A program made the position numbers and the translations under genes. This document shows positions 4,064 through 57,548 of a DNA stretch of 64,000 nt, piece by piece. Numbering within the stretch: the stretch's first letter is position 1; each line of letters starts with the position of its first letter. The notes under the pieces are model-generated. The model made no database searches. It saw nothing but the letters and a program-made list of their open reading frames with translations, and had not been told where the DNA came from. Origin of the DNA: a virus. Lineage: Duplodnaviria > Heunggongvirae > Uroviricota > Caudoviricetes. The DNA is taken from the IMG/VR virus record IMGVR_UViG_2693429713_000009, one strand, 5' to 3'.

Positions 4064-4431
4064 TGACCATCTCTGTTTTAGACCGCCTGAAATTAGGTAA
4101 AGAGCTATCAGATCTAATGCAGGCGCAGAAAACTGCGCCAGTATTGCAACGCGTCACCATTGGTAAGCAGATTGTTGATGTGATGCTGAAATTGGGCCTG
4201 GGGACTGCCGCGCAACCGGCAGCGGAACCGCAACAACAGACTGATCCTGTTGTAGATGAAGTCCCTAAGATAGTGACTGACTTCTTGGGCGGTGTGTTCA
4301 CAAAGTCCACACAAATGGAATTTATTGATGCGCTGCGTGGGATCTCAAACTATGTTGGCGAGTTCCTTACGTTGGAGCAGGCTAAAGAGCAGACCATAAG
4401 CTGGGTGAAAGCTAACGGTTATGCCGGGTAA
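4063..4431 (+). CDS. small Dar-operon protein (DdrA-like)
   Basis: 122 aa, start overlaps DarA-like stop. Confidence 0.4.
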   Translation: MTISVLDRLKLGKELSDLMQAQKTAPVLQRVTIGKQIVDVMLKLGLGTAAQPAAEPQQQTDPVVDEVPKIVTDFLGGVFTKSTQMEFIDALRGISNYVGEFLTLEQAKEQTISWVKANGYAG

Positions 4432-4513
4432 TCAAAAGGGGCTGAAATGCCCCTTTCACTTATCTGTTCTCACATAAATCACACACTTTTTACACTCACA
4501 GCTTTCTCTATAG

Positions 4514-5911
4514 TTGGAGTGTATTTTGAACAAATCCGTTACTTCTGCGCTTTCCGGGGCCACAGATATTAACAGCGTCATTGCTCTGGTTTCTTCATTA
4601 GAGAGGAAAGAAACACGCCTGGGGCGAAGTAGCTACGTAGTCACCAGCAAAGGTGCAGAGGTAAAGACGGCTTTTAAGGTCGTTGATGCCAGCAGTCTGA
4701 TCATTTCGAACAACCTTGACGGTACGATTAACCCGGCCTTCCCGGAAGAACTCCAACCACGAGATCGTACCCGGCTATCCAGCAAACTCCAGGTTAACCG
4801 TATTGCCTCCAATTTACGCCCGGCACAATTAACGGATTCCGGTATGAGCAGCCACGGAGCGCCGATAGTTGGTCCGGACAACGTTGTTGAATCCGGCAAC
4901 GGAAGGAGTATGGGTATCTGGCGTGCCTATGAGCAAGGACAGGCGGATGAGTATCGCCAGTACCTGATCGACCATGCGAAAGAGTTTGGTCTGAATCCTG
5001 ACGAAATTTCGCAAATCTCTATGCCCGTACTGGTGCGAGAAAGACTCACAGATGTAGACCGCGCTCAATTTGCCCGCGATTCAAACATTAGCGATCTGCA
5101 AGAGATGGCAGCAAGTGAAAAAGCGTATGCGGATGCGCAATTTCTCACTGAGAGCGTCATGGCGCTATTTAATCCTTCAGATGATGGAAATCTGCTGGCG
5201 CGGTCCAATGATGCGTTTATTCGTGCGTTTTTGCGCGAAATTGGCGATACAGCGACGGCAGGCTTGCTTACTGCCGATGGGCGTCCCACGAAACAGCTTA
5301 TCGATCGCATCCAGAATGCAATTTTTGCCAAAGCGTACAAGGATGAAAGGCTTGTTCGGCTGGTGTCGGAAGAGCCAGATCCGGAAATGCGTAATATCCT
5401 GACCGCATTAAATACGGCAGCCAGCGATTTTGCGCAAATGCAGTCGCTGTCTGGCGACGCTCACCATGACGCAGTAACAGGCTTAGTGGACGGTATAGAG
5501 CAGGTTAATGGCCTGGATACACAGGCGATAGCAGCACTCCAGGAAGCAATTAATCTTGTACGTGAAGCCAAAGACAACGGTCAGGCCGTTGAAGAAGTGA
5601 TCGCCCAAAGGGGGTTATTCGGCGATAGTACACCGGAAGCTGAGGCATTGGCGTTATTCATCGTAGCAAATAATCGCAGTGCGAAGCGTATGGGGGCAGC
5701 ATTCAAAAAAATGGCGCAAAAAATCAACGACGAGCTGACTCATAAACAACAGGCATTGGGCGATATGTTCGGCGGTGGCGATGTTGATCTGCGTCGTATT
5801 TTGTCTGCTGTATCTGATGAAATTGAGGGTGAATTTGGCGAAGGGAAAGGTCTGAACTTTGCTATGTTTGAAAATTCTACAGGTCTAAATAATTGCCGTA
5901 CGGAAAACTAA
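4514..5911 (+). CDS. hypothetical protein, head/Dar module
   Basis: 465 aa ORF, same strand operon, no motif recognised. Confidence 0.35.
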   Translation: MECILNKSVTSALSGATDINSVIALVSSLERKETRLGRSSYVVTSKGAEVKTAFKVVDASSLIISNNLDGTINPAFPEELQPRDRTRLSSKLQVNRIASNLRPAQLTDSGMSSHGAPIVGPDNVVESGNGRSMGIWRAYEQGQADEYRQYLIDHAKEFGLNPDEISQISMPVLVRERLTDVDRAQFARDSNISDLQEMAASEKAYADAQFLTESVMALFNPSDDGNLLARSNDAFIRAFLREIGDTATAGLLTADGRPTKQLIDRIQNAIFAKAYKDERLVRLVSEEPDPEMRNILTALNTAASDFAQMQSLSGDAHHDAVTGLVDGIEQVNGLDTQAIAALQEAINLVREAKDNGQAVEEVIAQRGLFGDSTPEAEALALFIVANNRSAKRMGAAFKKMAQKINDELTHKQQALGDMFGGGDVDLRRILSAVSDEIEGEFGEGKGLNFAMFENSTGLNNCRTEN

Positions 5912-5975
5912 ACCAACCGCTGAAATCACATACTGATTATGCTGCCGCAAAACTGGAAACAATTTGCGGTGATTC

Positions 5976-7658
5976 ATGGCAACGAAAGACAAAAACAAAG
6001 GCTTTCTGTCAGCATTGAAGAAAGCCTTCAACGGTGGTGATGTTACGCCCGCCGATCCGGTCGTTTTTACGAGCGGACATAGTGTCGTTGCTCGTTCCGG
6101 CCTGTCTGCTTTACGTCCAGGCATCCTGGGGAGCAATAGCGATGGCATGACGAGTGAAGCAGATTCAATTTCTTTATCCGCTGAACTGCCCGGCGAGCGC
6201 CTGCAAAAGTACAACATCCTGGAAACGATGGCTAAAAGCCCGACTATCTCGACGGCTTTAAATATTCACATTGCACATGCGCTTGCGCCTTCAAAAAAAA
6301 CCGGACAAGCATTCATCCTTTCGCCAAAGGATGGTTCCGATGCCGAGGCAGTAAGTAGATGTGAAGAGTTAACCGCTGATTTGGGGGCGATGATTAATGA
6401 CGGACTTCCTTCATGGGCCATGATTATGGCGATCTTTGGGGTGTCTTATGTCCGCCCTTATGCTGAACAGGGCAGGGGGATAACAGGCATTGAGTCCAGT
6501 TATTACACTCTGCCACACTTCGTCCAAGAGTTTTATCGTGGTAGCCAGCTGGTAGGTTTCAGTGGTGATTACATCCTGGATACGCATAGTTTGCGCAGAG
6601 TAATAACCGAACCGTGGAATCTGGTTTCCATGAAAAATCCCTATTGGACGCCGCAGCATAAAGTTATTCCGGTTAGCTACGGCACGAAAGGGTACTCACT
6701 GTTAAGTGAGCAGGCTGATAAGCCGTTAATGGAGACGCAGAATTACGGTACTTCATTCCTTGAATACAGCTATGAACCTTACCTGAATTTATGTGCTGCG
6801 CTCGCCGCGCTGAAATCAACGCGAAATAATGCAGCCAAAATTGACCGCCTGATTGCTCTTACGACGAACACACTGGACCCGGTTAATGCGGCGAACTATA
6901 CGCGTGGCGTCAGCCAGGCATTGAAGCGTCATAGTGACCTGGTGGCGCAAAGGTCGATTAATGCCAACGCTATTCCGACTGTGCTTAACCATCTGATACC
7001 TGTTATGGGAGACGGGAAGAACGGCATCACCATTGATACGCAATCCATACCCGCAGATATCAGTGGTATCGAAGACGTTATGTTTCACCTCCGGCAGCTT
7101 GCTGCAAGCCTAGGCATTGACGCAACAATGCTTGGCTGGGCTGATCAGATGAGTGGTGGACTTGGGGAAGGAGGTTGGCAGCAAACAGCTATCCAGGCCG
7201 CATTACGTGCGAACTGGATCAGACAGGCCGCCCAGCGAACTATTTATCGGCTTCATGATATTCACCTCGCTTATAAATACGGGAAGGTTTACACCGAAAA
7301 AAACCGTCCTTATGACGTGCAATTCAACTCAATGAACACTGCTATCCAGGAAGAGGAAAACCGGGAACTGGATGCACGCGCCAACTTTGTTGCTGTCATC
7401 TCCCAAATTATGGACCAGATCCAGAACAACCCGAAACTGGCTGGTAGTGACGCGTTTATGCGTTATCTGTTCACCGAGCAGTTGCACATCGATGATGACA
7501 CTCTCAACACCATGATCAAAGAGTTTAAGGCGAATGAATCAGAGCAAAACAACGAGCATGGTATGTACGAATCCTCGCCGTTGTCGTCCGGTGACGATCC
7601 GGAAAACTGGACGCCAGAACAGTTAATAAACTTTGCAAAATTTGTGATGAGCAATTAA
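5976..7658 (+). CDS. hypothetical protein, possible portal or head morphogenesis protein
   Basis: 560 aa; size and position in head-associated operon only. Confidence 0.3.
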   Translation: MATKDKNKGFLSALKKAFNGGDVTPADPVVFTSGHSVVARSGLSALRPGILGSNSDGMTSEADSISLSAELPGERLQKYNILETMAKSPTISTALNIHIAHALAPSKKTGQAFILSPKDGSDAEAVSRCEELTADLGAMINDGLPSWAMIMAIFGVSYVRPYAEQGRGITGIESSYYTLPHFVQEFYRGSQLVGFSGDYILDTHSLRRVITEPWNLVSMKNPYWTPQHKVIPVSYGTKGYSLLSEQADKPLMETQNYGTSFLEYSYEPYLNLCAALAALKSTRNNAAKIDRLIALTTNTLDPVNAANYTRGVSQALKRHSDLVAQRSINANAIPTVLNHLIPVMGDGKNGITIDTQSIPADISGIEDVMFHLRQLAASLGIDATMLGWADQMSGGLGEGGWQQTAIQAALRANWIRQAAQRTIYRLHDIHLAYKYGKVYTEKNRPYDVQFNSMNTAIQEEENRELDARANFVAVISQIMDQIQNNPKLAGSDAFMRYLFTEQLHIDDDTLNTMIKEFKANESEQNNEHGMYESSPLSSGDDPENWTPEQLINFAKFVMSN

Positions 7659-12044: not shown

Positions 12045-15000
12045 TTGGACAAACTACTTCATTCAATCAGTGAAGCCTCCAGCTTAGGCGAACTGATTGA
12101 AATTGTTAGTCGGTTGCATAAATTACGTGCTGTTGCGACCTTTGGCGTCAGGAAAGCCGATGGCGTCAGTATTCAGAAAACACGCCGGGCAGCAAACAAT
12201 GCCGCAGTAAATCTTCTTAATTCCCTTCCGCCCGGCTTCGATGGGGCGAAATTAACTGACGAACAACGTCAGATTCTTGCTGGGTATACCGGTGAAGGCG
12301 GCCTGACAGATGGTGAGGGCAGCCAATACGAATACTACACGCCACAGTTTATGGCTGAAGGTATATGGGATCTGTTTGCTGACTACGGTATTGATGGCGG
12401 GCACGTACTGGAACCATCAGCGGGCACAGGTATTTTCCAGGAGACAAAACGGCAGGGCATGATAATGACCAGCGCGGAACTGTCTCCGATTTCTGGTCGA
12501 ATAAACCAGCTTTTGCACCCGGAAGACGATGTGAATATCGGGGCGTTTGAGGCGCTGGCGGCGAAAGATGCAATGTATGACCACGCTGTTGGTAACGTAC
12601 CGTTTGGTGAAGGGCGTTCCGGCGTTGCCGGGCTTGATCCGGCATATGCAAACGAGAAGAACGTTGGCAATTACTTTGTGCTGCGCACGATCGACAAGGT
12701 TAAGCCTGGTGGGCTTATCGTATTGGTGGTGCCAAATGGCATGACCGATGGTACGAAATATAAAAAATTGCGCGATAAAGTCAGCCGTAAAGCGGAATTT
12801 TTGGGCGCACATCGTATGCCTTCCGGTACGTTCAGCGAATCCGGTACAGATACCGTGGTGGACGTATGGGTATTGCGTAAACACCCGGAAACCTTCCTGG
12901 AGATGATCCCCGACACGGATGATTCAACACTCAAATCGGCAAACGTCCTTTGGGATACCTTCCTCAAAGGAAAATGGTTTACAACCGAAGGGAAGCGATT
13001 TGTTTACGGCGACATGGAACGTACCAGCTTCCGCAATACCTTGGTGGTGAAAAAAGACGGTCGTGTATCCAATGAGTCGATGAAAACCGCGCTATCTCGT
13101 CGCTTTGATAGTCGCATCAATTGGGATTTGCTCGGCGTAACTACTCAGGCATGGCAGGGCGCGAAAGTGGGCGATAAACGCCTTGTAGGCGGTATCTGGC
13201 ATGAGTTTGATGGTCTGAAATGGGTTAAGGACACGACAACCAAATCCTCCGCGCTTGATGTAAGTCGATATGGTGTTTCGACGTTTGGCGATCTGCAGAT
13301 CGCGTTCCAGTCAACAAACGGGATTCTGGCTTTGTCATGGGACCAGATATCGGCGATCGCGTCCGACTATCCATCGGTTGTCAGTGATGAAGTGGCAGCA
13401 ATGATTCGCTTTGCTGGCAAGCAGCGAGAAAAAGACAGGGAGCGCGTTATGCGCGGTGCGCTGATAGGTCAGTTGATCAACAAGGCACTTGATTTGCGTA
13501 ACCTGGGTGTGAACGTTGATGACAAACTGGCAGATGCATCCCGCCTGGCGGCAGCAGAAGTTGCGAAGTATGGACCACCGCACGCCATTAAGCTGAATGG
13601 GCTTGCTGAAGCTGGCGCTAAAAACTGGATGACGTTCACTGGCAATGTGAAACAGGATGGTTCCACTTCTGACCTTCTGGCAGGGCGACTTGATGTAACG
13701 GATGGTGCTGCCGGTATTGACTTTACACGTCCTGAACAAGTGATAGCACATCTTTTCAGTGATGTAGCCCTTAATCCTATAACGCTGGGAGACTTTCGTG
13801 AGGCGTTTGCTGGTGAACTGCCAGAGGACGACGACGCGGCCCTTGAATACCTGGCGAAATTTGATGATATCGCTATTGATGGGTATGGCTGCCTGCTGCC
13901 GATGGACCGCGCCACCAGCGGCGATATTGCAACCAAAACAGCATTGCTGATGGGCTGGCGTGATGCGTCAACAGGTGAGCAGAAAGCGAACTTTGAGCGT
14001 CAGTTGGCGAAAATCGAAGAGAAACGTATTTTCACGCCACTAAATAAAGTCACCGTTAATCTGAATGCCCGCTGGCTGGATCGCCGCTTGATAAAAGAGT
14101 TCCTGGCAGAGCAGGGCTATGACGAGTTTAAGTACACTGAACCTGATCTGAAGGTCGTCGATGGCATTCTGGTATCTCCGGACGATTACGAAGGTAAGGA
14201 CGGGGTATTTACCGGCTATCAGCTACGAACCGTAAACGGCAAAAACGGGAATGAGTTCAAGAAGGCCAACAATAAAGACGGCTTCCTGAACCAGTTAGAA
14301 AACTACCTGAACGGTGTTAAACCGCGTGGGCAGAACGCTAACGAGTACCTGGATAAAATTGCTCAACTGGAAGTTAGTTTTAACGACTGGTTACGCACTC
14401 ACCCGCAGGCTGATCAGATAGCCCGCGAGTATAACGACGCATTCAATGGTTTCATTCCGTTCACGCATTCTGACGCACCGCTTGGCCTGGAAGGGCTTAG
14501 TGGAAAGCGCATTCCTCTTACTTATCAGAATGAAGAAGTTCGGCGCTTGTCAGAAGATGGGCGCGGCATCATGGGATTTGGTACCGGGCTGGGTAAAACC
14601 ACGACCGCGCTTGCGCTTGAGGCGTATAACTTCGAAACAGGTCGCACTAAACGCACGTGTATTGTTGTTCCGAAGGCGGTTTATCAGAACTGGTATCACG
14701 AGGCACAGAGTTTCTACAGTGCTGATGCCTTTGCCAATATGATGTTTATCGGTTTGGATGAAGTTCGTGATGACAGCGGAAATATTCTGACCGCGCCGGT
14801 GCTTGATGAAAATGGCGAACCACGCCTCGACAGTAACGGGCAGCCTCTTACCAGAAATGTTGTGAAAGAGTCCGCCAGCGCCGTTATCGTTCAGCGCATG
14901 AACATGATCCCGTCGTCAAATTGGCGAACGGTCATCATGACAAAAGAACAATTCGCGTCTATCCCGCTACGAGAAAAAACCATCGAGGAGAACTCACAGC

Positions 15001-18000
15001 AAGCTGTCTTTAATGCTGTGGAAATGGGGCGTCTTGACCTGGCGTCCGGTAAACACCGTGATGCGCAGAAGAAGAACAAGATTAAGGATCAGGCCGCGAA
15101 TACCGGTACAACGAAGAAGCAGAATATCCCGTACTTTGAGGATATGAACTTCGATAGCGTGATTGCCGACGAGGGGCATAACTACCGCAACTCCTTTAAT
15201 GCCGGGCGTGAAGCGGGACAACTGGCATATTTGCCTAACCCGGCAGTATCCAAGATGGCCCGCGACATGGCTGTAAAAGCTGCGTACATGATGAAACGCA
15301 ACAACGGGCGTGGTGTAGTCATGCTGACGGCAACTCCGCTGGTGAACAGTCCGATTGATGCCTTCAACATGCTGTCTACTGTCATTCCGCAGGAAGAGTG
15401 GATGCGCATGGGCATCATTACGCCTGATGATTTCGTTCGTGTGTTTGGCAAAACAGCCACAGTTCAGGTCCAGAAAATTTCCGGGGAAGTGGAAGAGAAG
15501 CAGGGGCTGGTGGGCTTCCAGAACCTTGACGGCCTGCGTGGTATTTTCCATCGTTGGACCACTCTGAAGACTGCTGCAGATGTCGGAGCGACGGTTAAAA
15601 TTCCCGACATCATTGAGAACACCTTGCAGATCCCGATGACAGGGGAGCAGGAGATTGCTTATGAAGAGCTTCGTAAGCGTGCTCAGGAGTTAAGTCGCAA
15701 TGATGAGCTGACAGTCGATGAAAACGGGCATATCACTAACGACAAACCGGATGATTTCATCTTCTCCATCATCCGTGACATGGACAAGGTTGCTATAGAC
15801 CCGGATCTGTATGCCAGTGCGATTACATTCCAGTTCCCCGTTGAGCTTGCAGACCAGGTAAAAGCTATTGCTGATGCCTTGCCAAAAGTAGCTGGCGGTA
15901 AAGTGGCAGATGATGTTGATGAGGCCGAGGAAGACGGCGCTGGCGGGCTGGTCAGTACGCGTACCAGCAAGGTAGTGAAGACCGCTTTTAGTGAACATCC
16001 GACGCATGTTGAAATACGTGCCAGCATTGAACTGGAAGCTGAAATACTTAAGGCTATTGCGGCTGCCGGTATTGATATGCAGCAGGTATCGCACCCCATC
16101 CCGCCGAAGTATGCCGCGCTGATCGAAAATCTTCGTGAAGGTCTGAAGAACGGTAAGCAGATCGTCTTTATTGATGAAAAAGCCCAGCACCAGAAGTTGC
16201 GCCGTATTATCGCCAGTGCACTGCAAATGCCGGAACAGGAGATTGGCATTATCAATGCGACGACAGTTAGCCAGGCTGGCGGCATCAAGCTGAAGAAGGT
16301 GAATAAGCCGACCGAACCTACTCCAAACAAAAACGGTGAATACAAAGAAGGGGCATGGGAAACCTACTACAGCAAACTTGCCCAATATGAGGATTATCTC
16401 TCAGCTAAAAATGATGCTGGCCTTGAGGGCATGGAAGGTATTGCCGCCGACTATAACGAAGGTCGCACGCGTATCATAATCTGTAACAAGAAGGCTGAAG
16501 TAGGTATTAACCTGCACATCGGGACAACCGATATCCACCACCTGACACTACCCTGGACACCAGCCAGTATCGACCAACGAAATGGGCGCGGTGCGCGCGT
16601 AGGTTCACCGCAAGAGAAGGTCAATGTTCACTACTATTGTGGCAAAGGCACATTCGACGACTTCCGTCTGGATACGCTGAAACGTAAGAAAGACTGGATC
16701 AAGATGGTGATGACCTCCGACATGTCAGAGATCGCCAATGGTGATGCGGATGATGCTGATGAACGCGCCATTATGCTGGCGGCAAACCCGGAAGAACGCC
16801 GCGCAATCATGGCTCGCCAGGCGCAAGAGCGTGAAGAACGTCTGAAACTGAAAGCACAGCGCGAGGCCAACAATGCTCTCGATATCTACCTGAAAGCGGC
16901 AAACGCCGCCGGAAAAGATATCGGCATGATGGAGACAGAACTGAAAAGCGCGATGGAACAGATAGAGTATTACCAGCGCAATCTTGACGACCTGATAAAA
17001 GCGGGTACGAACAGGAATGGGCAAAAATACGCGCTTGAGCAGTTGAGTAGCTACAGAAAACGTGCGCGGGTGCTGCGGTTTGCGATCACCAGGGCAAAAG
17101 ACGCGGATACCATAATGAAACGCTCTCGTGGTGATGTGGAGCGCGCTATTAAGTCTGGTGTGCTGGATATCAGTATCGATGTTATTCAGAACCCACAGGA
17201 ATATATGCGCACTGACAAGAATATCCTGTTGCATAAAGGTAGTTATTACCGTGCAGTCATTGATGATCGCGAAACAACAGCGATTGTCCGGGTGGAAAAA
17301 ATTGACGGTGAAAAAGCACAATACCTCTGCCGTATCGCCTGGCTGGATAGAGCAAGTCGTTACGCTCGAGCACCGGGGTCAATCGTTACATTGCCGTTTG
17401 ACTCTGTGATTGAAGCGGTAACTTTTGAAGAGGGGGTAGCTGAATCGCGCGCAACGGCTGCGCGTGGTGTTCAGTGCCACCAGCTATCAACAATACTTAC
17501 TCGCGATCAGTTCTATGATGCTATTCGCAATGGGGTAATGAATGTTATTGCTGGTAAACCTGGTAATGCATGGGGCGGTGGGTCAGCTATTAAATACTGG
17601 GCTTATCGCACAGATGATGGTCAGATCGCGCTGTCATCGACCTATGATGGCATGATAGGACAGAAAATCGGGCGTACATCGGATATTGCACCAGAGCAGT
17701 GGATTTACCCTGATATCAACAATGAGGCGCTGAAGCGTGAAGTGGCAAAAATACAAGCCAGTGATAATCCGCTGAATATCGTGGACGGAGAGGGATTCCT
17801 CCAGGCATTGTATGGGTATGATTACATCCAGGGAATGCAGGCATGGGGCGCACAAGCAACGATGGATGATGTTGCCCAGGAGTTCGAAAACTGGATGGCT
17901 GGGCGTGGTCTGTCAGGTCGTTCGCTTAATAAAGTCACTTCTGAAGATATTCTTAGCTTGTTCCGTAAACCGTCCGGAGAAGGTCTGGAATCATTCTGGA

Positions 18001-18881
18001 GGACCGTGCTGGCATACCGTTTATTCCAGGGCAGGATGAAAGCCTTTAGCAATATCGATGATATTGAACGGATGTTTAATCAGGTCAAGATCGCGAAAAT
18101 TAAGGCGAAGATCGAAAAAACACGTTCTGCGCTGGTGGCCTGGCGCGATGCATTGTTTGAGCAATATAAATCACTCAGTGATGCAGATGGATGGGCGGCA
18201 TTGGAACAGCTGGCGAATAATGGGGTAGATGGAGCGAAACTCGCCATTGTTCAGGCTGATAACCCCTTGGAATCACCGGCAGCACAGTGGATTAAGGTTG
18301 GGGCTGTCATCAATGCATTTGATGAAAAACACATTAGTAAGGACGATTTTGCTGATGCTGTTTCTGTTAATCGCCTGGTAGAAATGGCTACCCGTCGCGC
18401 CCGTGAGTTGAAAGACGGCGACTATGTGAATGAGTTGCCGGATGCGCTCAAATCGGCAACGTGGCAGGACTATGTATCGCTGAAAAACGGCGGGGCCACT
18501 GAATCAGAGATCGCGAAAAGGCTTGAGCAGGCTGAAAGCAAAAGAGAAGAGCAGGCGGCAGTGGCTGAAGCCAGAGCTGATGAAGCGGCGAATGATGACT
18601 ATATCATTGTGGTTAATGATAAGCCGATTCGCGCTAAGGCGCGTGTTCGCGGGCGCTGGTGGAGCGTCAGCGAAGACGTTGGCGCGGTTTATCTCATTGC
18701 CGACCAGCCAGGTTCCTCGACAATACGGAACGCCAAAGACGCGATTAAGAAGATTGGCGGGCGTTTCTGGAATTTTGAAGCAAACCCGGTTGCTGATGTG
18801 AACTTTGACCGTCCGGCGTGGATGGTATCTACGCGTTACTCGGTAGATGAACTGCGTAAAATAATCGCCGATGCGGCCTAA
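12045..18881 (+). CDS. darB: DarB-like antirestriction protein, N6-adenine methyltransferase plus helicase
   Basis: 2278 aa; TTG start after GAGGGGG; SAM motif VLEPSAGTGIF and NVPFG; helicase Walker A GFGTGLGKTT and DEGH box. Confidence 0.8.
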   Translation: MDKLLHSISEASSLGELIEIVSRLHKLRAVATFGVRKADGVSIQKTRRAANNAAVNLLNSLPPGFDGAKLTDEQRQILAGYTGEGGLTDGEGSQYEYYTPQFMAEGIWDLFADYGIDGGHVLEPSAGTGIFQETKRQGMIMTSAELSPISGRINQLLHPEDDVNIGAFEALAAKDAMYDHAVGNVPFGEGRSGVAGLDPAYANEKNVGNYFVLRTIDKVKPGGLIVLVVPNGMTDGTKYKKLRDKVSRKAEFLGAHRMPSGTFSESGTDTVVDVWVLRKHPETFLEMIPDTDDSTLKSANVLWDTFLKGKWFTTEGKRFVYGDMERTSFRNTLVVKKDGRVSNESMKTALSRRFDSRINWDLLGVTTQAWQGAKVGDKRLVGGIWHEFDGLKWVKDTTTKSSALDVSRYGVSTFGDLQIAFQSTNGILALSWDQISAIASDYPSVVSDEVAAMIRFAGKQREKDRERVMRGALIGQLINKALDLRNLGVNVDDKLADASRLAAAEVAKYGPPHAIKLNGLAEAGAKNWMTFTGNVKQDGSTSDLLAGRLDVTDGAAGIDFTRPEQVIAHLFSDVALNPITLGDFREAFAGELPEDDDAALEYLAKFDDIAIDGYGCLLPMDRATSGDIATKTALLMGWRDASTGEQKANFERQLAKIEEKRIFTPLNKVTVNLNARWLDRRLIKEFLAEQGYDEFKYTEPDLKVVDGILVSPDDYEGKDGVFTGYQLRTVNGKNGNEFKKANNKDGFLNQLENYLNGVKPRGQNANEYLDKIAQLEVSFNDWLRTHPQADQIAREYNDAFNGFIPFTHSDAPLGLEGLSGKRIPLTYQNEEVRRLSEDGRGIMGFGTGLGKTTTALALEAYNFETGRTKRTCIVVPKAVYQNWYHEAQSFYSADAFANMMFIGLDEVRDDSGNILTAPVLDENGEPRLDSNGQPLTRNVVKESASAVIVQRMNMIPSSNWRTVIMTKEQFASIPLREKTIEENSQQAVFNAVEMGRLDLASGKHRDAQKKNKIKDQAANTGTTKKQNIPYFEDMNFDSVIADEGHNYRNSFNAGREAGQLAYLPNPAVSKMARDMAVKAAYMMKRNNGRGVVMLTATPLVNSPIDAFNMLSTVIPQEEWMRMGIITPDDFVRVFGKTATVQVQKISGEVEEKQGLVGFQNLDGLRGIFHRWTTLKTAADVGATVKIPDIIENTLQIPMTGEQEIAYEELRKRAQELSRNDELTVDENGHITNDKPDDFIFSIIRDMDKVAIDPDLYASAITFQFPVELADQVKAIADALPKVAGGKVADDVDEAEEDGAGGLVSTRTSKVVKTAFSEHPTHVEIRASIELEAEILKAIAAAGIDMQQVSHPIPPKYAALIENLREGLKNGKQIVFIDEKAQHQKLRRIIASALQMPEQEIGIINATTVSQAGGIKLKKVNKPTEPTPNKNGEYKEGAWETYYSKLAQYEDYLSAKNDAGLEGMEGIAADYNEGRTRIIICNKKAEVGINLHIGTTDIHHLTLPWTPASIDQRNGRGARVGSPQEKVNVHYYCGKGTFDDFRLDTLKRKKDWIKMVMTSDMSEIANGDADDADERAIMLAANPEERRAIMARQAQEREERLKLKAQREANNALDIYLKAANAAGKDIGMMETELKSAMEQIEYYQRNLDDLIKAGTNRNGQKYALEQLSSYRKRARVLRFAITRAKDADTIMKRSRGDVERAIKSGVLDISIDVIQNPQEYMRTDKNILLHKGSYYRAVIDDRETTAIVRVEKIDGEKAQYLCRIAWLDRASRYARAPGSIVTLPFDSVIEAVTFEEGVAESRATAARGVQCHQLSTILTRDQFYDAIRNGVMNVIAGKPGNAWGGGSAIKYWAYRTDDGQIALSSTYDGMIGQKIGRTSDIAPEQWIYPDINNEALKREVAKIQASDNPLNIVDGEGFLQALYGYDYIQGMQAWGAQATMDDVAQEFENWMAGRGLSGRSLNKVTSEDILSLFRKPSGEGLESFWRTVLAYRLFQGRMKAFSNIDDIERMFNQVKIAKIKAKIEKTRSALVAWRDALFEQYKSLSDADGWAALEQLANNGVDGAKLAIVQADNPLESPAAQWIKVGAVINAFDEKHISKDDFADAVSVNRLVEMATRRARELKDGDYVNELPDALKSATWQDYVSLKNGGATESEIAKRLEQAESKREEQAAVAEARADEAANDDYIIVVNDKPIRAKARVRGRWWSVSEDVGAVYLIADQPGSSTIRNAKDAIKKIGGRFWNFEANPVADVNFDRPAWMVSTRYSVDELRKIIADAA

Positions 18882-53593: not shown

Positions 53594-53923
53594 ATGGGCT
53601 ATAGCAGACTCGACGATAGGTACATTGAAGACGATATTTTTCGTGCGCTGTTTCACCAGGAAATGATTAAGCGGGTATCGGAGTATCACTCTGATAATTT
53701 CCAGTACACGATAAAGATTGATGAAGTATATCGTTCAGACCTTGCAGCCTACAGGGCGTATGGCAATGCAGATTTGCGCTGGGTATTCCGGGTGCTGGTG
53801 GGCCATGAGTCAGAAATGGAAGAAATGCCCGCCGGGACCACGTTAACTCTTCCTGATGTGGCATGGCTGAGGAACAAGATCCGTGATTACGCGAGCGCGG
53901 AACCGGAGATAGAAAATGCCTGA
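53594..53923 (+). CDS. hypothetical protein
   Basis: 109 aa, overlaps start of SWIM gene. Confidence 0.4.
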   Translation: MGYSRLDDRYIEDDIFRALFHQEMIKRVSEYHSDNFQYTIKIDEVYRSDLAAYRAYGNADLRWVFRVLVGHESEMEEMPAGTTLTLPDVAWLRNKIRDYASAEPEIENA

Positions 53924-55112
53924 TTTCCTGAAAAACCAGGACGGGCGCTATATCACTGACGGCCTGTCCTCTAAGGACTTCACGCGTTTATTCGACCTTA
54001 TCAGGAAAGAACAAACCCGTAAGCGCCGACAAGCTCACCGGACGCTGACGCCAGGTAGACTGAGGAACAAATCCGCCGAAGATATTCTCAAGTTAGGGAA
54101 GAAAAAAGGCGGCACGTTCTTCACGCGAGACGACCTGAAAGGTTTCGAAAAGCTACGGAGTAAAACACGCGAAAAATATGACAGCAAGACGGCTGGCATC
54201 ACATACGCCCAGCTGGTGGCATCCAGCCAAGCAATCGATATTAAGCGTGCAAATAACGCCGTGGATGACGGATCTGGTATCAAAAGAGCTACACCCGTAT
54301 CTCTTCGCCACAACGTGATTAATATCCGCGTAGAAGCATCGGATATATCCGTCCACCAGCACCATATCGTCCGGATACGCTTTGAAGAATGGGATCAGAT
54401 GGTCGATGACATCGCAGAAGACGATAAATCAGCCCTGAAAATCACTAAATCACTGTGCGCCGGGCGGGTGTCTTTCGATTGTGACTGTGGTCGTCATCAA
54501 TACTGGTATCGTTACATCGCTACTGCGGGTAACTTTGCCCTGGCCCCGCCAAAAGAATACGCCTATCCAAAAGTTCGTAACCCTAAGCTACAAGGCGTCG
54601 CCTGTAAACACGTGATCCACTCAATGACGCGGTTACAGTCCGCTAGTTGGCAAATGAGTATTGCTCGTGCGTTACAAAAGGCCGCAACGCAAATTGCATT
54701 TGGTGACGATCGCCGCCGTACAACCAAACACTTCTCAAAAGAAGACGAGAGGGAGTTTAATCGCAATCGCAACAGTAAAACAAACGTTGACGTTGCCAAG
54801 CGCGAATGGAGGCTCTATCAGAAGCGCCAGGCCGCTTTAAGCACAAAACTGGCAAAGGACAACGGCAAAATTGACAAGCTACGTGACCAATTGACCAAAG
54901 CCAGAAAGTTGTCAGACGCACAGAAAAAACGGGCGGCAGCAAAAGAAGCGGCCTTGCAACGTGAGAAACAGAAAAACAAGGAGCTTCAGCAACGCCTTGC
55001 CGATCAGTTCGCACTGAAGAAGCAGGCGTTCATTGATGCGCTTGTCATGGCAGGAACGTCACCTGAGCAAGCTGAAAAAATGTTTATGGAGTATGTGAAG
55101 AAAGGTTCTTAA
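53916..55112 (+). CDS. SWIM zinc-finger protein with basic coiled-coil tail
   Basis: 398 aa; CDCGRH...CKH pattern; Lys/Arg-rich helical C-terminus. Confidence 0.45.
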   Translation: MPDFLKNQDGRYITDGLSSKDFTRLFDLIRKEQTRKRRQAHRTLTPGRLRNKSAEDILKLGKKKGGTFFTRDDLKGFEKLRSKTREKYDSKTAGITYAQLVASSQAIDIKRANNAVDDGSGIKRATPVSLRHNVINIRVEASDISVHQHHIVRIRFEEWDQMVDDIAEDDKSALKITKSLCAGRVSFDCDCGRHQYWYRYIATAGNFALAPPKEYAYPKVRNPKLQGVACKHVIHSMTRLQSASWQMSIARALQKAATQIAFGDDRRRTTKHFSKEDEREFNRNRNSKTNVDVAKREWRLYQKRQAALSTKLAKDNGKIDKLRDQLTKARKLSDAQKKRAAAKEAALQREKQKNKELQQRLADQFALKKQAFIDALVMAGTSPEQAEKMFMEYVKKGS

Positions 55113-55121
55113 TTTACAACA

Positions 55122-55146
55122 AAGGCGGTTATCCCGCCTTTTATAT
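55122..55146. terminator. hairpin terminator
   Basis: AAGGCGG-TTATC-CCGCCTT then TTTT. Confidence 0.5.
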
Positions 55147-55883
55147 TACTTGTCCTTTGATGTCGATTGAGACTCATATATTGTCTCCACGTCATCTATT
55201 AATTTATTAATACCCCACAATCCAGTGTCTTTATAAAAATCACTTTCTTCAATTGCTTTTAATAAATCGGCAAAATCTTCTTTGGTGGAAATCCTTTTAT
55301 CTTTTGCTTTATATATATCAACAATTACTTTTATACCGTGATACAGAGCCACTCTGGCACTCTCAATCTCTCTCTTCTTTTCTTCGATTGTATTCAGTAT
55401 TTTTTGTTGACCTTCTATTTGTTCCTCTAATTTTAAAAGCTCTTCCTCTTTTTTCTTTAGGTTTCTCAGTAACGCCTTTACTCTTGCTTTCTCTTCTGAG
55501 TCAAATTCATGGTCAATGTATCTTATTTGCGCATAATTTCTACCAGTTAGTTTTGATATACGCATAGTAATATAAGGCATTACTATGGACGCAATAGTGC
55601 CATATATAAACGGCATCACAAAGTGAGCTAAAAACGGAGATACAATGAAGGTTCCAAAATAAGGGATTTGATATTTATCCCCTACCCATACTATAGACAG
55701 TGTTGTGTATATATCATATTTAGATTTAAACAAAATTAGTATTTCTTGCCAATTAACGACAAAAAATGAAACCACCACATATGCAAATAATTTATTAAAT
55801 AATTTATCTTTTATGGCTTCATCCATTGTGCCCTTGATTGAGTCAATTGTAGATGTGTTTTCTGTTGATGAATTTTTGCTCAT
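55146..55883 (-). CDS. AT-rich membrane protein with cytoplasmic coiled coil
   Basis: About 245 aa; GC content by eye roughly one third, far below flanks; multiple TM segments then Lys/Glu-rich coiled coil. Confidence 0.5.
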   Translation of the reverse strand: MSKNSSTENTSTIDSIKGTMDEAIKDKLFNKLFAYVVVSFFVVNWQEILILFKSKYDIYTTLSIVWVGDKYQIPYFGTFIVSPFLAHFVMPFIYGTIASIVMPYITMRISKLTGRNYAQIRYIDHEFDSEEKARVKALLRNLKKKEEELLKLEEQIEGQQKILNTIEEKKREIESARVALYHGIKVIVDIYKAKDKRISTKEDFADLLKAIEESDFYKDTGLWGINKLIDDVETIYESQSTSKDK

Positions 55884-55945
55884 ACAAGCTATCAAACCTT
55901 CTAATTTTTATTTTAGATAAAAAGCGGTCCTCCAGACCGCCAAAC

Positions 55946-56305
55946 TTAAACACCAACCAGACTTTCCAGTGGAATACCAAACTGGGCATGTAAACGACGA
56001 ATCATAGGTAACGTCAAATTTCGTGTCCCATTAAGCACTTCGTAAACACGGTTTGACTTACCAATTGCCGGTTCCAGATCCTTCACGGTCAGCCCTTGCT
56101 GTTCCATACGGAATTTAATGGCCTCAATAGGTGATGGTGGCTCAATTGGGTAATGTTTTTTCTCGTACTCCTCAATGAGAAGACACATAACCTCAAAGAA
56201 ATCGCCTTCCGGTGTGTTCATTTCCGGTTCATTATCGAACATCGGTTCGACCGCACGCAGTGCGGCCTCATAATCTTGTTCTGTACGGATAGGTTTAATG
56301 TTCAT
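55946..56305 (-). CDS. higA: HigA-like antitoxin (HTH)
   Basis: 119 aa with C-terminal HTH; downstream of toxin. Confidence 0.65.
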   Translation of the reverse strand: MNIKPIRTEQDYEAALRAVEPMFDNEPEMNTPEGDFFEVMCLLIEEYEKKHYPIEPPSPIEAIKFRMEQQGLTVKDLEPAIGKSNRVYEVLNGTRNLTLPMIRRLHAQFGIPLESLVGV

Positions 56306-56308
56306 GAT

Positions 56309-56611
56309 TTACTCCAGTTCTATTGTATCCGCTTCAATGGCATCGTATTCCTTATGTGTTCCAATAAACTTAACGAACATCCATCCTCGCTGATAAGCAA
56401 TTGCGACAATTAACCTGTAATCATTTCCCTTAATATTGAACACCACGCGCCTGTTTTTAAGGATGCTGGCTGTCCGGTACTGTTCTTTGATCTCAGCCGG
56501 ATTTTTCCAGTCAGCCTTTGTTGCTTCATCAACCCATGCCTTTAATGGCTGTTCTGCATCGGGATTCTTCGCCCAGAAATCCCTTAGTGTTTTTACCGAA
56601 ATTATTTTCAT
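56309..56611 (-). CDS. higB: HigB-like toxin (RelE/ParE superfamily)
   Basis: 100 aa from MKIISVKTLRDFW; THKEYD motif; toxin precedes antitoxin. Confidence 0.65.
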   Translation of the reverse strand: MKIISVKTLRDFWAKNPDAEQPLKAWVDEATKADWKNPAEIKEQYRTASILKNRRVVFNIKGNDYRLIVAIAYQRGWMFVKFIGTHKEYDAIEADTIELE

Positions 56612-56638
56612 CACAGATTCCTTCTCTCTGAAAGTATA

Positions 56639-56688
56639 GTAGTCCCAATATGGGACAATGTAAAGCACTTTAGTCCCATGCTGGGATA
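56639..56688. promoter_or_regulatory. higBA operator-like dyads
   Basis: Two TAGTCCCA-N4-TGGGA palindromes upstream of higB. Confidence 0.5.
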
Positions 56689-56756
56689 TGAATTGAAATC
56701 ACAATCTCCAGACAATGCACCCTCGATACCTGATAAATCGACCTTTGAGGATGCTT

Positions 56757-57548
56757 ATGGGCCGTTTTGACGAATGGTTTGCTGACGATGCAAACCTGGC
56801 AAGTAAGAAGTCAGAACATGACAGCACGCAGAGAGAAACGCCAGCGCCGATTGAAGCGAATGCAGGAGGCACGCCGGAACATGGCAATACCGGTTCGGAT
56901 TCATTCAGCATTCTGGAAGAGCAACCCGCCGCCAAAGCTGATAGCCATGATAATTTTGCTGATAGCAACGGTGGCCTTACTCCGGATGCTGGCGAATCAG
57001 ATATAGCCATACTTCCACCTTCCCTGGCTGGCAGAGAACCAACTCCACAGCTAAAAGCACGCTATAACGGGCATAAAGCCTTTAACGACCAAATCCGCGC
57101 AGACTGGATGCTGATTATTGAATCCAGCCCAGACGCGTTTCAGGCTCTCTTATATCGACCAGATGTTGGCACATATGGGGTAGTCAGCGACGAAACAGGA
57201 GAAGAGTCATTCACTGAACTGGATAACAACCAACGCGAACTGACTTACCAGGAACCTGAAATCGTTTATGTGCTGGATAACCCGGACGGGCGTGACTCTT
57301 TCCATGCGATTGACGCAGACGGTGAGCAGGATGGTTTAACCGATGATGTTCTGATTCTGCGTATTGCAGCAAATAACGTCCCCGTCGGATCAATTCTTGA
57401 ATGGAATGAAGAGATGGTAAACGGCGTAGCCCGCCGCTGGTGGTACGTGCACCGTATTTTTAGCTACGGCACACAGCATGTTGGTTCGCTTTACTACTGC
57501 ATACCTGCCAGAAATTTTGATACGACTCAAAACGGAGTGATCGAATGA
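56757..57548 (+). CDS. hypothetical protein, possible tail/baseplate module
   Basis: ATG at 56757 after GAGGATG; acidic N-terminal half. Confidence 0.4.
   Translation: MGRFDEWFADDANLASKKSEHDSTQRETPAPIEANAGGTPEHGNTGSDSFSILEEQPAAKADSHDNFADSNGGLTPDAGESDIAILPPSLAGREPTPQLKARYNGHKAFNDQIRADWMLIIESSPDAFQALLYRPDVGTYGVVSDETGEESFTELDNNQRELTYQEPEIVYVLDNPDGRDSFHAIDADGEQDGLTDDVLILRIAANNVPVGSILEWNEEMVNGVARRWWYVHRIFSYGTQHVGSLYYCIPARNFDTTQNGVIE

What the first reader, a model, noticed from the sequence alone, without database searches (positions are those of the whole stretch)
55146..55883. Strongly AT-rich membrane protein gene adjacent to higBA
Base composition drops sharply across this ORF compared with both flanks, indicating recent horizontal acquisition. 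The product has several transmembrane segments followed by a long charged coiled coil, an architecture common in abortive-infection and exclusion effectors. It is bracketed by hairpin terminators.
Basis: partly seen in the sequence, partly recalled or inferred. Interest (0 to 1): 0.65.

Follow-up and report, generated by a model that had tools for sequence, protein, structure and literature searches.

The report
Hypervariable AT-rich prophage membrane protein gene
This is a real, conserved but uncharacterised gene that D6-like phage-plasmids carry as an add-on between two tail genes; it encodes a two-pass membrane protein with a long coiled coil, exists as many ancient swapped variants, and is most likely a phage-exclusion or defence factor, though nobody has tested that.

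Summary
The minus-strand ORF 55146-55883 (245 aa) has 31.7% GC, the lowest of any stretch in the 64-kb window (mean 47.7%). It lies between two stable terminator hairpins, just downstream of a genuine higBA pair.

The window is a D6-like P1-family phage-plasmid, and the gene is D6 orf73 (phrog_8191, function unknown). The protein has two transmembrane segments, not several, followed by a roughly 90-residue coiled coil and a small helical end domain.

There is no significant match in Pfam, NCBIfam, PADLOC or PDB, by sequence or by fold. The family is tiny: 36 representatives among 1.84 billion proteins.

The gene is not a recent arrival:
- It occupies the same slot in nearly all D6-like plasmids.
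- Every allele is AT-rich.
- dN/dS is about 0.2.
- At least seven old allele groups sit in nearly identical backbones. The membrane module is 50-68% identical between groups, the C-terminal half only 12-36%.

It does not depend on higBA, because toxin-antitoxin pairs upstream are replaced, decayed or absent. Even so, it often lies downstream of some toxin-antitoxin pair, also on non-phage Klebsiella plasmids. Distant relatives sit in accessory-gene sites of P2-like prophages and in defence-type neighbourhoods.

Best reading: a moron-encoded inner-membrane exclusion or defence protein. The function is inferred, not shown.

The parts
55146..55883 (-). Target CDS, 245 aa. Equals D6 orf73 and belongs to phrog_8191. 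It is an AT-rich membrane and coiled-coil protein.
   Evidence: ORF list and translation. phrog_8191 at E 1e-112. 100% identical in Salmonella plasmid NZ_CP028198.1. dN/dS about 0.2.
55509..55823 (-). Conserved N-terminal membrane module, residues 21-125. It holds the KDKLFNK motif, TM1 (residues 32-52, nt 55728-55790) with invariant N44, a KSK-D-TLS loop helix, and TM2 (residues 76-107, nt 55563-55658) with invariant P91, G95 and P103.
   Evidence: Hydropathy. Alignments A1 and A3. 50-68% identity between allele groups. A profile of this module finds only 36 representatives.
55302..55562 (-). Long charged helix or coiled coil, residues 108-194, continuous with TM2. It is hypervariable between alleles.
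   Evidence: AlphaFold models show a helix at 83-194 with pLDDT up to 97. C-terminal half is 12-36% identical between groups. Only generic coiled-coil matches in PDB.
55152..55283 (-). Small helical C-terminal domain, residues 201-244, with a loosely conserved pattern (Y191, D203-F204, ...F/Y).
   Evidence: Alignment A3. AlphaFold. A sub-threshold DUF6947 hit at E 0.005, below the gathering score.
55121..55141 (.). Bidirectional intrinsic terminator between the stop of gene 25-like (55112) and the stop of the target (55146).
   Evidence: Scan. Folding gives -15.4 and -11.7 kcal/mol, z about -4.2.
55923..55941 (-). Terminator-like hairpin plus U-tract between the higA stop and the target start. 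A hairpin is present at this position in all TA-linked versions, but with unrelated sequences.
55946..56305 (-). higA antitoxin, 119 aa, HTH_3.
   Evidence: Pfam. It matches only positions 1-119 of the 402-position PADLOC PD-Lambda-2_B profile. It stays 94-100% identical next to target alleles that are only 37% identical.
56309..56611 (-). higB toxin, 100 aa, PF09907.
   Evidence: Pfam at E 3e-34. PADLOC PD-Lambda-2_A at 1e-41.
56636..56664 (-). Promoter-like site of higBA (TTTACA-17-TACTAT). It overlaps a GTCCCA-N3-TGGGAC palindrome (56642-56656), a likely HigA operator.
   Evidence: The palindrome is not repeated upstream of the target.
56001..56029 (-). Weak promoter-like site (GGGACA-17-TATGAT) inside the 3' end of higA. 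It is a candidate promoter for the target; whether it functions is unknown.
   Evidence: The number of such sites does not exceed the shuffle expectation.
53916..55112 (+). P1 gene 25-like tail gene, the conserved left flank of the slot, convergent with the target.
56715..57548 (+). P1 gene 7-like tail gene, the conserved right flank of the slot.

Best explanation
The ORF is a functional accessory gene (a 'moron') of D6-like P1-family phage-plasmids. It was inserted, on the opposite strand, between tail genes 25 and 7.

PROTEIN. It encodes an inner-membrane protein with a short N-terminal cytoplasmic segment, two transmembrane helices and a conserved polar and proline signature. TM2 continues into a long, probably oligomerising coiled coil, which ends in a small helical domain. 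This C-terminal part most likely lies in the cytoplasm.

MOST LIKELY FUNCTION. The plasmid prophage makes the protein, which protects the lysogen against incoming phages by superinfection exclusion at the inner membrane or by a membrane-acting abortive response. In this picture the conserved membrane module is the effector or contact part, and the hypervariable C-terminal half sets specificity.

RELATION TO HIGBA. The gene does not depend on higBA. The toxin-antitoxin pair upstream is a frequent but exchangeable neighbour. It probably supplies transcription by read-through of the intervening hairpin, and it may also stabilise the cassette.

SHOWN: the gene is real and under purifying selection; the insertion; the composition; the terminators; the two-transmembrane plus coiled-coil architecture; the ancient allele swapping; the independence from higBA; the absence of known homologues.

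INFERRED: topology, oligomerisation, expression in the lysogen, and the exclusion or defence function itself.
For: 1. MORON ANATOMY. P1 has genes 25 and 7 adjacent. Here a 1.6-kb opposite-strand block sits between them, bounded at 55105 and 56696 by 98% identity to D6. The ORF has the lowest GC of the window and terminators on both sides.

2. A REAL, SELECTED GENE. dN/dS is 0.17-0.34 in all pairs diverged enough to estimate. By halves it is 0.11-0.34, except the L005/L019 C-terminal half at 0.97. Intact ORFs occur in 154 plasmid records and in about 97 of 115 D6-like plasmids.

3. ANCIENT ALLELES IN YOUNG BACKBONES. There are at least 7 allele groups. The N-terminal module is 50-68% identical between groups and the C-terminal half 12-36%. 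Backbones with flank dS of 0.04-0.2 carry alleles that are only 37% identical. A mosaic allele (P0005) shows intragenic recombination. Deep sequence types at one locus are also described for the exclusion protein P22 SieA (PMC10883804).

4. INDEPENDENCE FROM HIGBA.
- An identical HigA sits next to 37%-identical alleles.
- higB is replaced in D6.
- higA is cut to 65 aa in L020-L029.
- No TA is present in L043/L044, in the same slot, in P2-like prophages or in the Klebsiella remnant.
- HigA operator palindromes are not repeated upstream of the gene.

5. DEFENCE-TYPE NEIGHBOURHOODS. Relatives lie at accessory-gene sites of P2-like prophages (between the S and V genes, and after ogr). They also lie next to HigBA, TacAT, HicAB, Cap4-nuclease/TIR genes, a WYL regulator, DUF4145, and an ATPase plus methyltransferase pair.

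6. PRECEDENT. The HK97 gp15 moron lies in the tail operon, has deviant GC and its own terminator, and encodes an inner-membrane exclusion protein (PMC3594210).

7. THE MEMBRANE PART IS MORE THAN AN ANCHOR. Conserved polar and helix-breaking residues sit inside the transmembrane helices: N44, S39, P91, G95, P103.
Against: - No convincing own promoter was found. The upstream hairpin looks like an efficient terminator, and only about 35 nt separate it from the start codon.
- Positive-inside bias is only modest, so the topology is not settled.
- dN/dS gives no sign of positive selection. The diversity could reflect old neutral lineages of a tolerant coiled coil, shuffled by recombination.
- Its near-core status in D6-like elements would also fit a function intrinsic to the phage.
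Confidence: 0.45

Rival explanations
1. The gene is the third component of a toxin-antitoxin-linked three-gene module (toxin, antitoxin, membrane protein). It is transcribed from the autoregulated TA promoter through an attenuating hairpin. When the antitoxin is lost or the promoter is de-repressed, for example during phage infection or plasmid loss, more of the membrane effector is made.
For: The same order (toxin, antitoxin, 55-70 nt with a hairpin, family member) recurs in five settings:
- With HigB/HigA-119 here.
- With HigB-103/HTH-139 in a D6-like slot (L035).
- With HigB/HTH-138 at a different slot of another P1-like lineage (L042).
- On non-phage Klebsiella IncFIB/HI1B plasmids flanked by IS elements (L052).
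- With TacAT plus a HigA relic (L034, L038-40, L046).

A hairpin is present at the junction in all trio types, with three unrelated sequences. No clear own promoter was found. Three-gene TA-derived defence systems do exist, such as PD-lambda-2 and CmdTAC (PMC9519451).
Against: - Family members occur with no TA in the same slot (L043/L044), in P2-like prophages, after umuDC and in other islands.
- TAs upstream are replaced or decayed while the gene stays intact.
- Conversely, on most Klebsiella plasmids the gene is cut by IS903B while HigBA stays intact.
- There is no co-variation between HigA and the hypervariable half.
- The HigA operator is absent upstream of the gene.
Confidence: 0.2
2. The gene serves the phage-plasmid's own life cycle rather than defence. 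Examples would be a lysis-timing or holin-modulating membrane protein, a factor acting at the membrane during the element's own DNA entry or lysogeny establishment, or a membrane tether for the plasmid prophage.
For: - Near-core presence in D6-like elements.
- A constant position inside tail or structural gene clusters of P1-like and P2-like elements.
- Two transmembrane helices plus a coiled coil would also suit lysis regulators.
Against: - The gene is absent from P1, P7 and all other sequenced phages except D6, so it is dispensable for this virion type.
- It lies on the opposite strand to the late operon, insulated by terminators.
- It also occurs on non-phage Klebsiella plasmids and in non-phage chromosomal islands.
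- No P1-type late promoter or C1 operator lies nearby.
- Extreme allelic diversity is unusual for a housekeeping phage function.
Confidence: 0.15
3. The gene is a lysogenic-conversion factor that changes host envelope physiology for reasons unrelated to phages, such as tolerance to colicins, bacteriocins, antibiotics or stress, or an effect on colonisation.
For: - It is an AT-rich membrane moron carried by plasmids of clinical and animal E. coli, Salmonella and Klebsiella.
- Morons with such roles are known, for example lambda Lom and Bor (PMC3594210).
Against: - There is no signal peptide or surface-exposed domain. Most of the protein is predicted to be a cytoplasmic coiled coil.
- The neighbourhoods are TA and defence-like rather than virulence-like.
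- There are no homologues with such roles.
Confidence: 0.12
4. The ORF is a spurious or decaying ORF in AT-rich spacer DNA.
For: It has low GC, no annotated function, and a few truncated copies (L013, L016 and the IS-cut Klebsiella copies).
Against: - dN/dS is about 0.2 over both halves.
- Full-length conservation extends to 20-40%-identical relatives with the same architecture.
- Motifs are invariant and the start codon is conserved.
Confidence: 0.02

Closest known systems
HK97 gp15 moron (inner-membrane superinfection exclusion protein; PMC3594210)
   Same: A foreign-composition insert inside a tail gene cluster with its own terminator. It encodes a small inner-membrane protein and is thought to be expressed from the prophage.
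   Different: No sequence or fold similarity was found. The protein here is larger, with a cytoplasmic coiled coil of about 140 residues. It lies on the opposite strand to the tail genes. Neither its expression nor any exclusion activity has been tested.
[quoted passage not shown]
   Same: A prophage-encoded multi-pass inner-membrane protein. It exists as several sequence types below 30% identity at one locus, which resembles the deep allele groups seen here.
   Different: SieA is 162-164 aa with three predicted transmembrane helices and no coiled coil. No homology was detected by Pfam, PHROG annotation or fold search.
PD-lambda-2 (HigB-like, HigA-peptidase fusion and P4-antitoxin-like protein; Vassallo et al. 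2022, PMC9519451)
   Same: The neighbouring HigB and HigA match the PADLOC profiles PD-Lambda-2_A (1e-41) and the first 119 positions of PD-Lambda-2_B (7e-43). It is also a three-gene layout with a third gene after a HigBA-like pair.
   Different: HigA here lacks the peptidase domain (119 aa against a 402-position profile). The third gene is a membrane coiled-coil protein with no match to any PADLOC model. The system is therefore not PD-lambda-2.
Membrane effectors of abortive-infection systems (RexB, CBASS, Pycsar and retron 2TM effectors, SLATT domains; from general knowledge)
   Same: Short N-terminal transmembrane module that could form a pore or depolarise the membrane, followed by a cytoplasmic extension. 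Defence-island and TA-type neighbourhoods.
   Different: No profile match: PADLOC 2TM and SAVED_TM hits appear only as isolated sub-threshold hits in single distant members. There is no partner sensor or signal-generating enzyme encoded next to it.
Two-TM pore-only cation channels (KcsA, NaK, NavSulP chimera with C-terminal helical bundle)
   Same: These are the top Foldseek hits. They share the order TM1, short helix, loop, TM2, long cytoplasmic helix.
   Different: The hits are not significant (E 1.7-9, probability at most 0.2, TM-score at most 0.26). No selectivity-filter motif is conserved across the family.
PHROG families 8191, 4780, 13369, 35327 and 22645 (all 'unknown function')
   Same: The protein is a member of phrog_8191 (E 1e-112). 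The wider family overlaps the other four PHROGs.
   Different: These are sequence clusters only and carry no functional knowledge.

Membership tests
Moron (independent accessory transcription unit in a prophage; Hendrix/Juhala definition as summarised in PMC3594210) | Extra DNA relative to related phages | tested here: met
   P1 genes 25 and 7 are 3 nt apart. In the window, 1.6 kb lies between their homologues. Identity to D6 breaks at 55105 and 56696.
Moron (independent accessory transcription unit in a prophage; Hendrix/Juhala definition as summarised in PMC3594210) | Base composition different from the surrounding genes | tested here: met
   31.7% GC against 44-49% in the flanks. It is the minimum of the whole window.
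Moron (independent accessory transcription unit in a prophage; Hendrix/Juhala definition as summarised in PMC3594210) | Own terminator and own promoter | tested here: inconclusive
   A terminator is present downstream (55121-55141), and a hairpin lies upstream. Only weak promoter-like sites were found, and their number does not exceed the shuffle expectation.
Moron (independent accessory transcription unit in a prophage; Hendrix/Juhala definition as summarised in PMC3594210) | Expressed from the repressed prophage | not testable with these tools
   This needs RNA-seq or a reporter in a lysogen.
PD-lambda-2 defence system | HigB-like component A | tested here: met
   PADLOC PD-Lambda-2_A at E 1e-41 for the neighbouring HigB.
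PD-lambda-2 defence system | Component B is a HigA-like HTH fused to a C-terminal peptidase | tested here: not met
   HigA is 119 aa and matches only positions 1-119 of the 402-position profile. The fusion is described in PMC9519451.
PD-lambda-2 defence system | Component C is related to a P4 phage antitoxin | tested here: not met
   The target has no PADLOC hit at E <= 1.
Type II HigBA toxin-antitoxin, with the target as an obligate third component | Strict co-occurrence and co-variation with the TA pair | tested here: not met
   Adjacency is frequent, but there are TA-less occurrences, TA swaps or decay with the gene intact, and gene loss with the TA intact. HigA does not co-vary with the gene.
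Known superinfection-exclusion proteins (SieA, SieB, HK97 gp15, T4 Imm/Sp) | Sequence or fold homology | tested here: not met
   No Pfam, NCBIfam or annotated PHROG match. No significant BFVD or PDB fold match.
Known superinfection-exclusion proteins (SieA, SieB, HK97 gp15, T4 Imm/Sp) | Inner-membrane location and block of incoming phage DNA | not testable with these tools
   Only predicted transmembrane helices are available. Fractionation and phage assays are needed.
Abortive-infection membrane effectors (2TM, SLATT, RexB-like) | Profile match to a known effector family | tested here: not met
   PADLOC gives none for the target. In the 26-member scan there are only scattered coiled-coil noise hits and single weak hits.
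Two-TM tetrameric cation channels (KcsA, NaK, Kcv) | Significant fold match and a conserved selectivity filter | tested here: not met
   Best Foldseek E is 1.7 with TM-score at most 0.26. The VG(D/E) stretch is not conserved in the wider family.
phrog_8191 (PHROGs, unknown function) | Full-length profile match | tested here: met
   E 1.3e-112 over residues 1-245 against profile positions 1-241 of 242.

The most novel reading that the evidence does not exclude
The family would be a previously unrecognised class of prophage- and plasmid-borne immunity proteins. A conserved two-helix membrane module would oligomerise through the coiled coil into a gated pore, or into a plug at the DNA-entry site. 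Interchangeable C-terminal 'allele cassettes' would recognise different phage components. In phage-plasmids and Klebsiella plasmids its dose would be set by read-through from an upstream, exchangeable toxin-antitoxin promoter, so that TA de-repression during infection arms the effector. That would be a new way of wiring TA modules to defence.
Probability: 0.15. Interest if true: 0.75.

Novelty: new variant of a known kind. Interest (0 to 1): 0.45.

Why it matters
D6-like and other P1-family phage-plasmids are common in clinical and farm E. coli, Salmonella and Klebsiella. This gene is one of their few near-universal accessory genes, and nobody knows what it does.

Several features are hallmarks of arms-race genes:
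- very old alleles swapped between almost identical backbones;
- a conserved membrane module;
- repeated placement at accessory-gene sites and beside toxin-antitoxin or defence genes.

This makes the gene a well-defined, cheap-to-test candidate for a new exclusion or defence family. The natural alleles would serve as ready-made specificity swaps.

There is also a practical annotation point. The neighbouring higBA will be flagged as a partial 'PD-lambda-2' by PADLOC-type tools, although it lacks two of that system's three defining features.

Tried and rejected
NOTHING INFORMATIVE FOUND
- Pfam, NCBIfam and PADLOC on the target and on 26 family members gave only coiled-coil noise (ZapB, LmuB, JetC). 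There was also a sub-threshold DUF6947 hit, and a PD-Lambda-1 hit confined to the coiled coil of one distant member.
- The PDB sequence profile gave coiled-coil noise.
- Rfam on the cassette gave nothing.
- A P1 C1-operator search gave 0 hits. A P1 late-promoter-like pattern gave 8 hits against 6.8 expected.
- A search for HigA operator repeats upstream of the target found none.
- Literature searches on accession numbers, phage-plasmid hotspots and P2 hotspots found no description of this family.

TECHNICAL FAILURES
- The genome-contig scan with the N-terminal profile found no relatives.
- Broader alignments were too diverse for pattern scans.

IDEAS REJECTED
- Membership of PD-lambda-2.
- Recent horizontal acquisition.
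- Positive selection as the cause of the diversity (dN/dS about 0.2).
- A K+-channel-like selectivity filter.
Full report
WHAT THE WINDOW IS

The region matches Escherichia phage D6 at 96% identity. It is 100% identical to Salmonella enterica plasmid NZ_CP028198.1. D6 is a P1-like plasmid prophage. The D6 annotation shows P1 gene 26- and 25-like tail genes on one side and gene 7-, 24-, 6- and 5-like genes on the other. The target corresponds to D6 orf73, annotated 'hypothetical protein'.

CHECK OF THE OBSERVATION

- The minus-strand ORF 55146-55883 (245 aa) has 31.7% GC and 28% GC3. The window mean is 47.7% and the sd is 3.3% for windows of the same length. It is the lowest-GC stretch of the 64 kb.
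- Both hairpins are real.
  - 55121-55141 is an 8-bp G+C-rich stem with U-tracts on both strands (-15.4 and -11.7 kcal/mol, z about -4.2). It serves as a bidirectional terminator for gene 25 and the target.
  - 55923-55941 on the minus strand (about -12 kcal/mol, followed by UUUUUAU) lies between the higA stop (55946) and the target ATG (55883).
- HigB (PF09907, E 3e-34) and HigA (HTH_3) are genuine.
- The protein has two hydrophobic segments (about residues 32-52 and 76-107), not several.
- The better AlphaFold model (26-sequence alignment, mean pLDDT 75.5) has these helices: 11-28; 31-53, kinked at N44; and 58-66. A small hairpin follows at 71-79. Then comes one continuous helix, 83-194, running from TM2 into a coiled coil (pLDDT up to 97), and a helical end domain at 201-244.
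- Positive-inside counts mildly favour an N-in/C-in topology. This is an inference.

NO KNOWN RELATIVES

- Pfam gives only a sub-threshold DUF6947 hit (E 0.005, 17 bits against a cut-off of 27). NCBIfam and PADLOC give nothing. PHROGs places the protein in phrog_8191, function unknown.
- The 5.8-billion-protein search found 20 proteins.
- A profile of the conserved N-terminal module, run against 1.84 billion representatives, found 36.
- These more distant proteins (199-358 aa full length; a few hits are shorter fragments) share the whole architecture and a few invariant residues (N44, P91, G95, P103). S39, S54 and Y191 are nearly invariant.
- All 26 aligned family members hit phrog_8191, and many also hit phrog_4780, 13369, 35327 and 22645. 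All five are unannotated.

WHERE THE GENE OCCURS

- In P1 itself, genes 25 and 7 are adjacent. The higB-higA-target block is therefore an opposite-strand insertion. Against D6, identity is about 98% up to 55104 and again from 56696, and it collapses in between.
- In every D6-like locus retrieved, the family member lies tail-to-tail with gene 25.
- In PLSDB the family is found in 154 plasmids. Of these, 97 are roughly 90-kb plasmids of Escherichia, Salmonella and Shigella. Gene 25 at 90% identity or more occurs in 115 plasmids. The gene is therefore close to core for this lineage.
- Among 5,426 complete E. coli genomes it was detected in 29, always on a plasmid.
- Among sequenced phages only D6 has it.

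ALLELES

- At least seven allele groups occupy the slot.
- Between groups the membrane module (residues 21-125) is 50-68% identical, while the C-terminal half is 12-36% identical.
- The flanking tail proteins are 96-100% identical in most backbones.
- Backbones whose flanking genes differ by dS 0.04-0.2 carry alleles that are only 37% identical. Between allele groups (D6/L001 against L020) synonymous sites are saturated, with dS above 1.
- One allele (P0005) is a mosaic of two groups.
- Overall dN/dS is 0.17-0.34 in all pairs diverged enough to estimate. By halves it is 0.11-0.34, with one exception: the L005/L019 C-terminal half at 0.97.
- The diversity is therefore old, maintained under purifying selection, and moved about by recombination. 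It is not recent or positively selected.
- All alleles are AT-rich at 28-34% GC. So are distant relatives inside GC-richer elements: 0.32-0.39 against 0.46-0.56, apart from L036 (0.44 against 0.55) and L049, which sits in a contig of only 37% GC.
- Low GC is thus a stable property of the family. This contradicts 'recent acquisition'.

RELATION TO HIGBA: EVIDENCE FOR INDEPENDENCE

- An identical or 94-100% identical HigA sits next to alleles that are 37% identical.
- In D6 and relatives the PF09907 HigB is replaced by a PF05015 HigB-like/HTH pair, which leaves HigA-119 as an orphan.
- In ten of the loci retrieved, HigA is reduced to a 65-aa relic.
- In a second P1-like lineage the family member sits alone between the gene 7 and gene 25 homologues (L043/L044).
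- In a decayed remnant in the Klebsiella grimontii chromosome it follows umuDC and is still convergent with gene 25/26 homologues.
- In P2-like prophages, relatives sit between the S-side genes and V, or after ogr at the prophage end, with no TA.
- The palindromes in the higB promoter (GTCCCA-N3-TGGGAC) do not recur upstream of the target.

RELATION TO HIGBA: EVIDENCE FOR A LINK

- The order 'toxin, antitoxin, 55-70 nt with a hairpin, family member' recurs in four settings:
  - with a different HigBA in a D6 slot (L035);
  - at another slot of another P1-like lineage (L042);
  - with TacAT plus a HigA relic;
  - on non-phage Klebsiella IncFIB/HI1B plasmids between IS elements and hut genes.
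- On most of those Klebsiella plasmids, IS903B has truncated the gene while HigBA stays intact.
- The junction hairpin is present in each trio type, with three unrelated sequences.
- No convincing own promoter was found.
- I therefore treat transcription by read-through from an exchangeable TA promoter as plausible, and obligate functional coupling as unlikely.

PD-LAMBDA-2

- The PADLOC hits of HigB and HigA to PD-Lambda-2_A and _B do not make this PD-lambda-2.
- That system needs a HigA-peptidase fusion and a P4-antitoxin-like third protein (PMC9519451).
- Here HigA covers only positions 1-119 of a 402-position profile, and the third gene matches nothing.

OTHER NEIGHBOURHOODS OF RELATIVES

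Relatives lie next to Cap4-nuclease and TIR genes and HicAB, a DUF4145 gene 11 nt upstream, a WYL regulator, and an ATPase plus DNA methyltransferase pair. This is the company usually kept by defence genes.

INTERPRETATION

- The anatomy matches a moron: extra DNA, deviant composition and terminators. HK97 gene 15 is the classic example. It also lies among tail genes and encodes an inner-membrane exclusion protein (PMC3594210).
- Deep sequence types at one locus are also reported for the exclusion protein P22 SieA (PMC10883804).
- Three further points support a prophage-expressed inner-membrane exclusion or defence protein, with the membrane module as the working part and the variable cytoplasmic half as the specificity part:
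  - the conserved polar and proline signature inside the transmembrane helices;
  - the variable cytoplasmic half;
  - the defence-type neighbourhoods.
- This is an analogy supported by context. It is not a demonstrated function, and I give it about 0.45.
- The rivals are:
  - a TA-coupled third component (0.2);
  - a function in the element's own life cycle (0.15);
  - a non-phage envelope function (0.12);
  - a spurious ORF (0.02, effectively excluded).

NOVELTY

- The gene is already present in databases as a hypothetical protein and as PHROG clusters. As far as the searchable literature shows, it has never been characterised.
- If it is an exclusion or defence protein, it is a new family within a known kind.
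- The unusual features are the ancient allele cassettes in near-identical backbones, and the recurrent but dispensable placement behind exchangeable toxin-antitoxin pairs.

Noticed in passing
window 55946-56611: The canonical higBA pair scores strongly against the PADLOC profiles PD-Lambda-2_A and PD-Lambda-2_B. It lacks the peptidase domain of component B and has no component C, so automated tools may mislabel it as a partial PD-lambda-2 system.
   Followed up: yes
L001 (D6) 5435-6562; L006-L008 4813-5940; L020-L029 about 4860-5952; L046 3755-4890: There is rapid turnover of toxin-antitoxin pairs upstream of the family gene. D6 carries a second HigB-like (PF05015)/HTH pair plus an orphan HigA-119. 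Other D6-like elements keep only a 65-aa HigA relic, which has its own PHROG (phrog_10398). Another P1-like lineage has TacAT plus a 68-aa HigA relic.
   Followed up: partly
L052 4162-5690 and L053 4162-5372 (Klebsiella pneumoniae IncFIB/HI1B plasmids): The HigB-HTH-family member trio also sits on large non-phage Klebsiella plasmids, between IS66/IS5 elements and hut genes. On most of these plasmids IS903B truncates the membrane-protein gene after about 137 codons.
   Followed up: partly
L002 6232-8804; L048/L050 about 3661-5633: Two different subfamilies of the protein lie directly downstream of umuDC-like (or umuC-like) genes in integrative elements. The repeated adjacency is unexplained.
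   Followed up: no
window 55105-56714: The insertion splits what is one late tail operon in P1 (26-25-7-24-6-5) and places a bidirectional terminator right after gene 25. Gene 7 and the genes downstream must therefore be transcribed from a new promoter in the 56612-56714 divergent region. This was not examined.
   Followed up: no
L056 4309-5732: A distant family member (P0050) is preceded, with an 11-nt gap, by a DUF4145 protein in an element with serine recombinases. This could be a two-gene unit.
   Followed up: no
window 12045-18881: There is a very long ORF of 2278 aa on the plus strand. It was not examined here.
   Followed up: no
protein P0005 (67% identical allele): The N-terminal 43 residues match the L005/L019 allele group, and the rest matches the window's group. 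This indicates intragenic recombination between alleles.
   Followed up: partly
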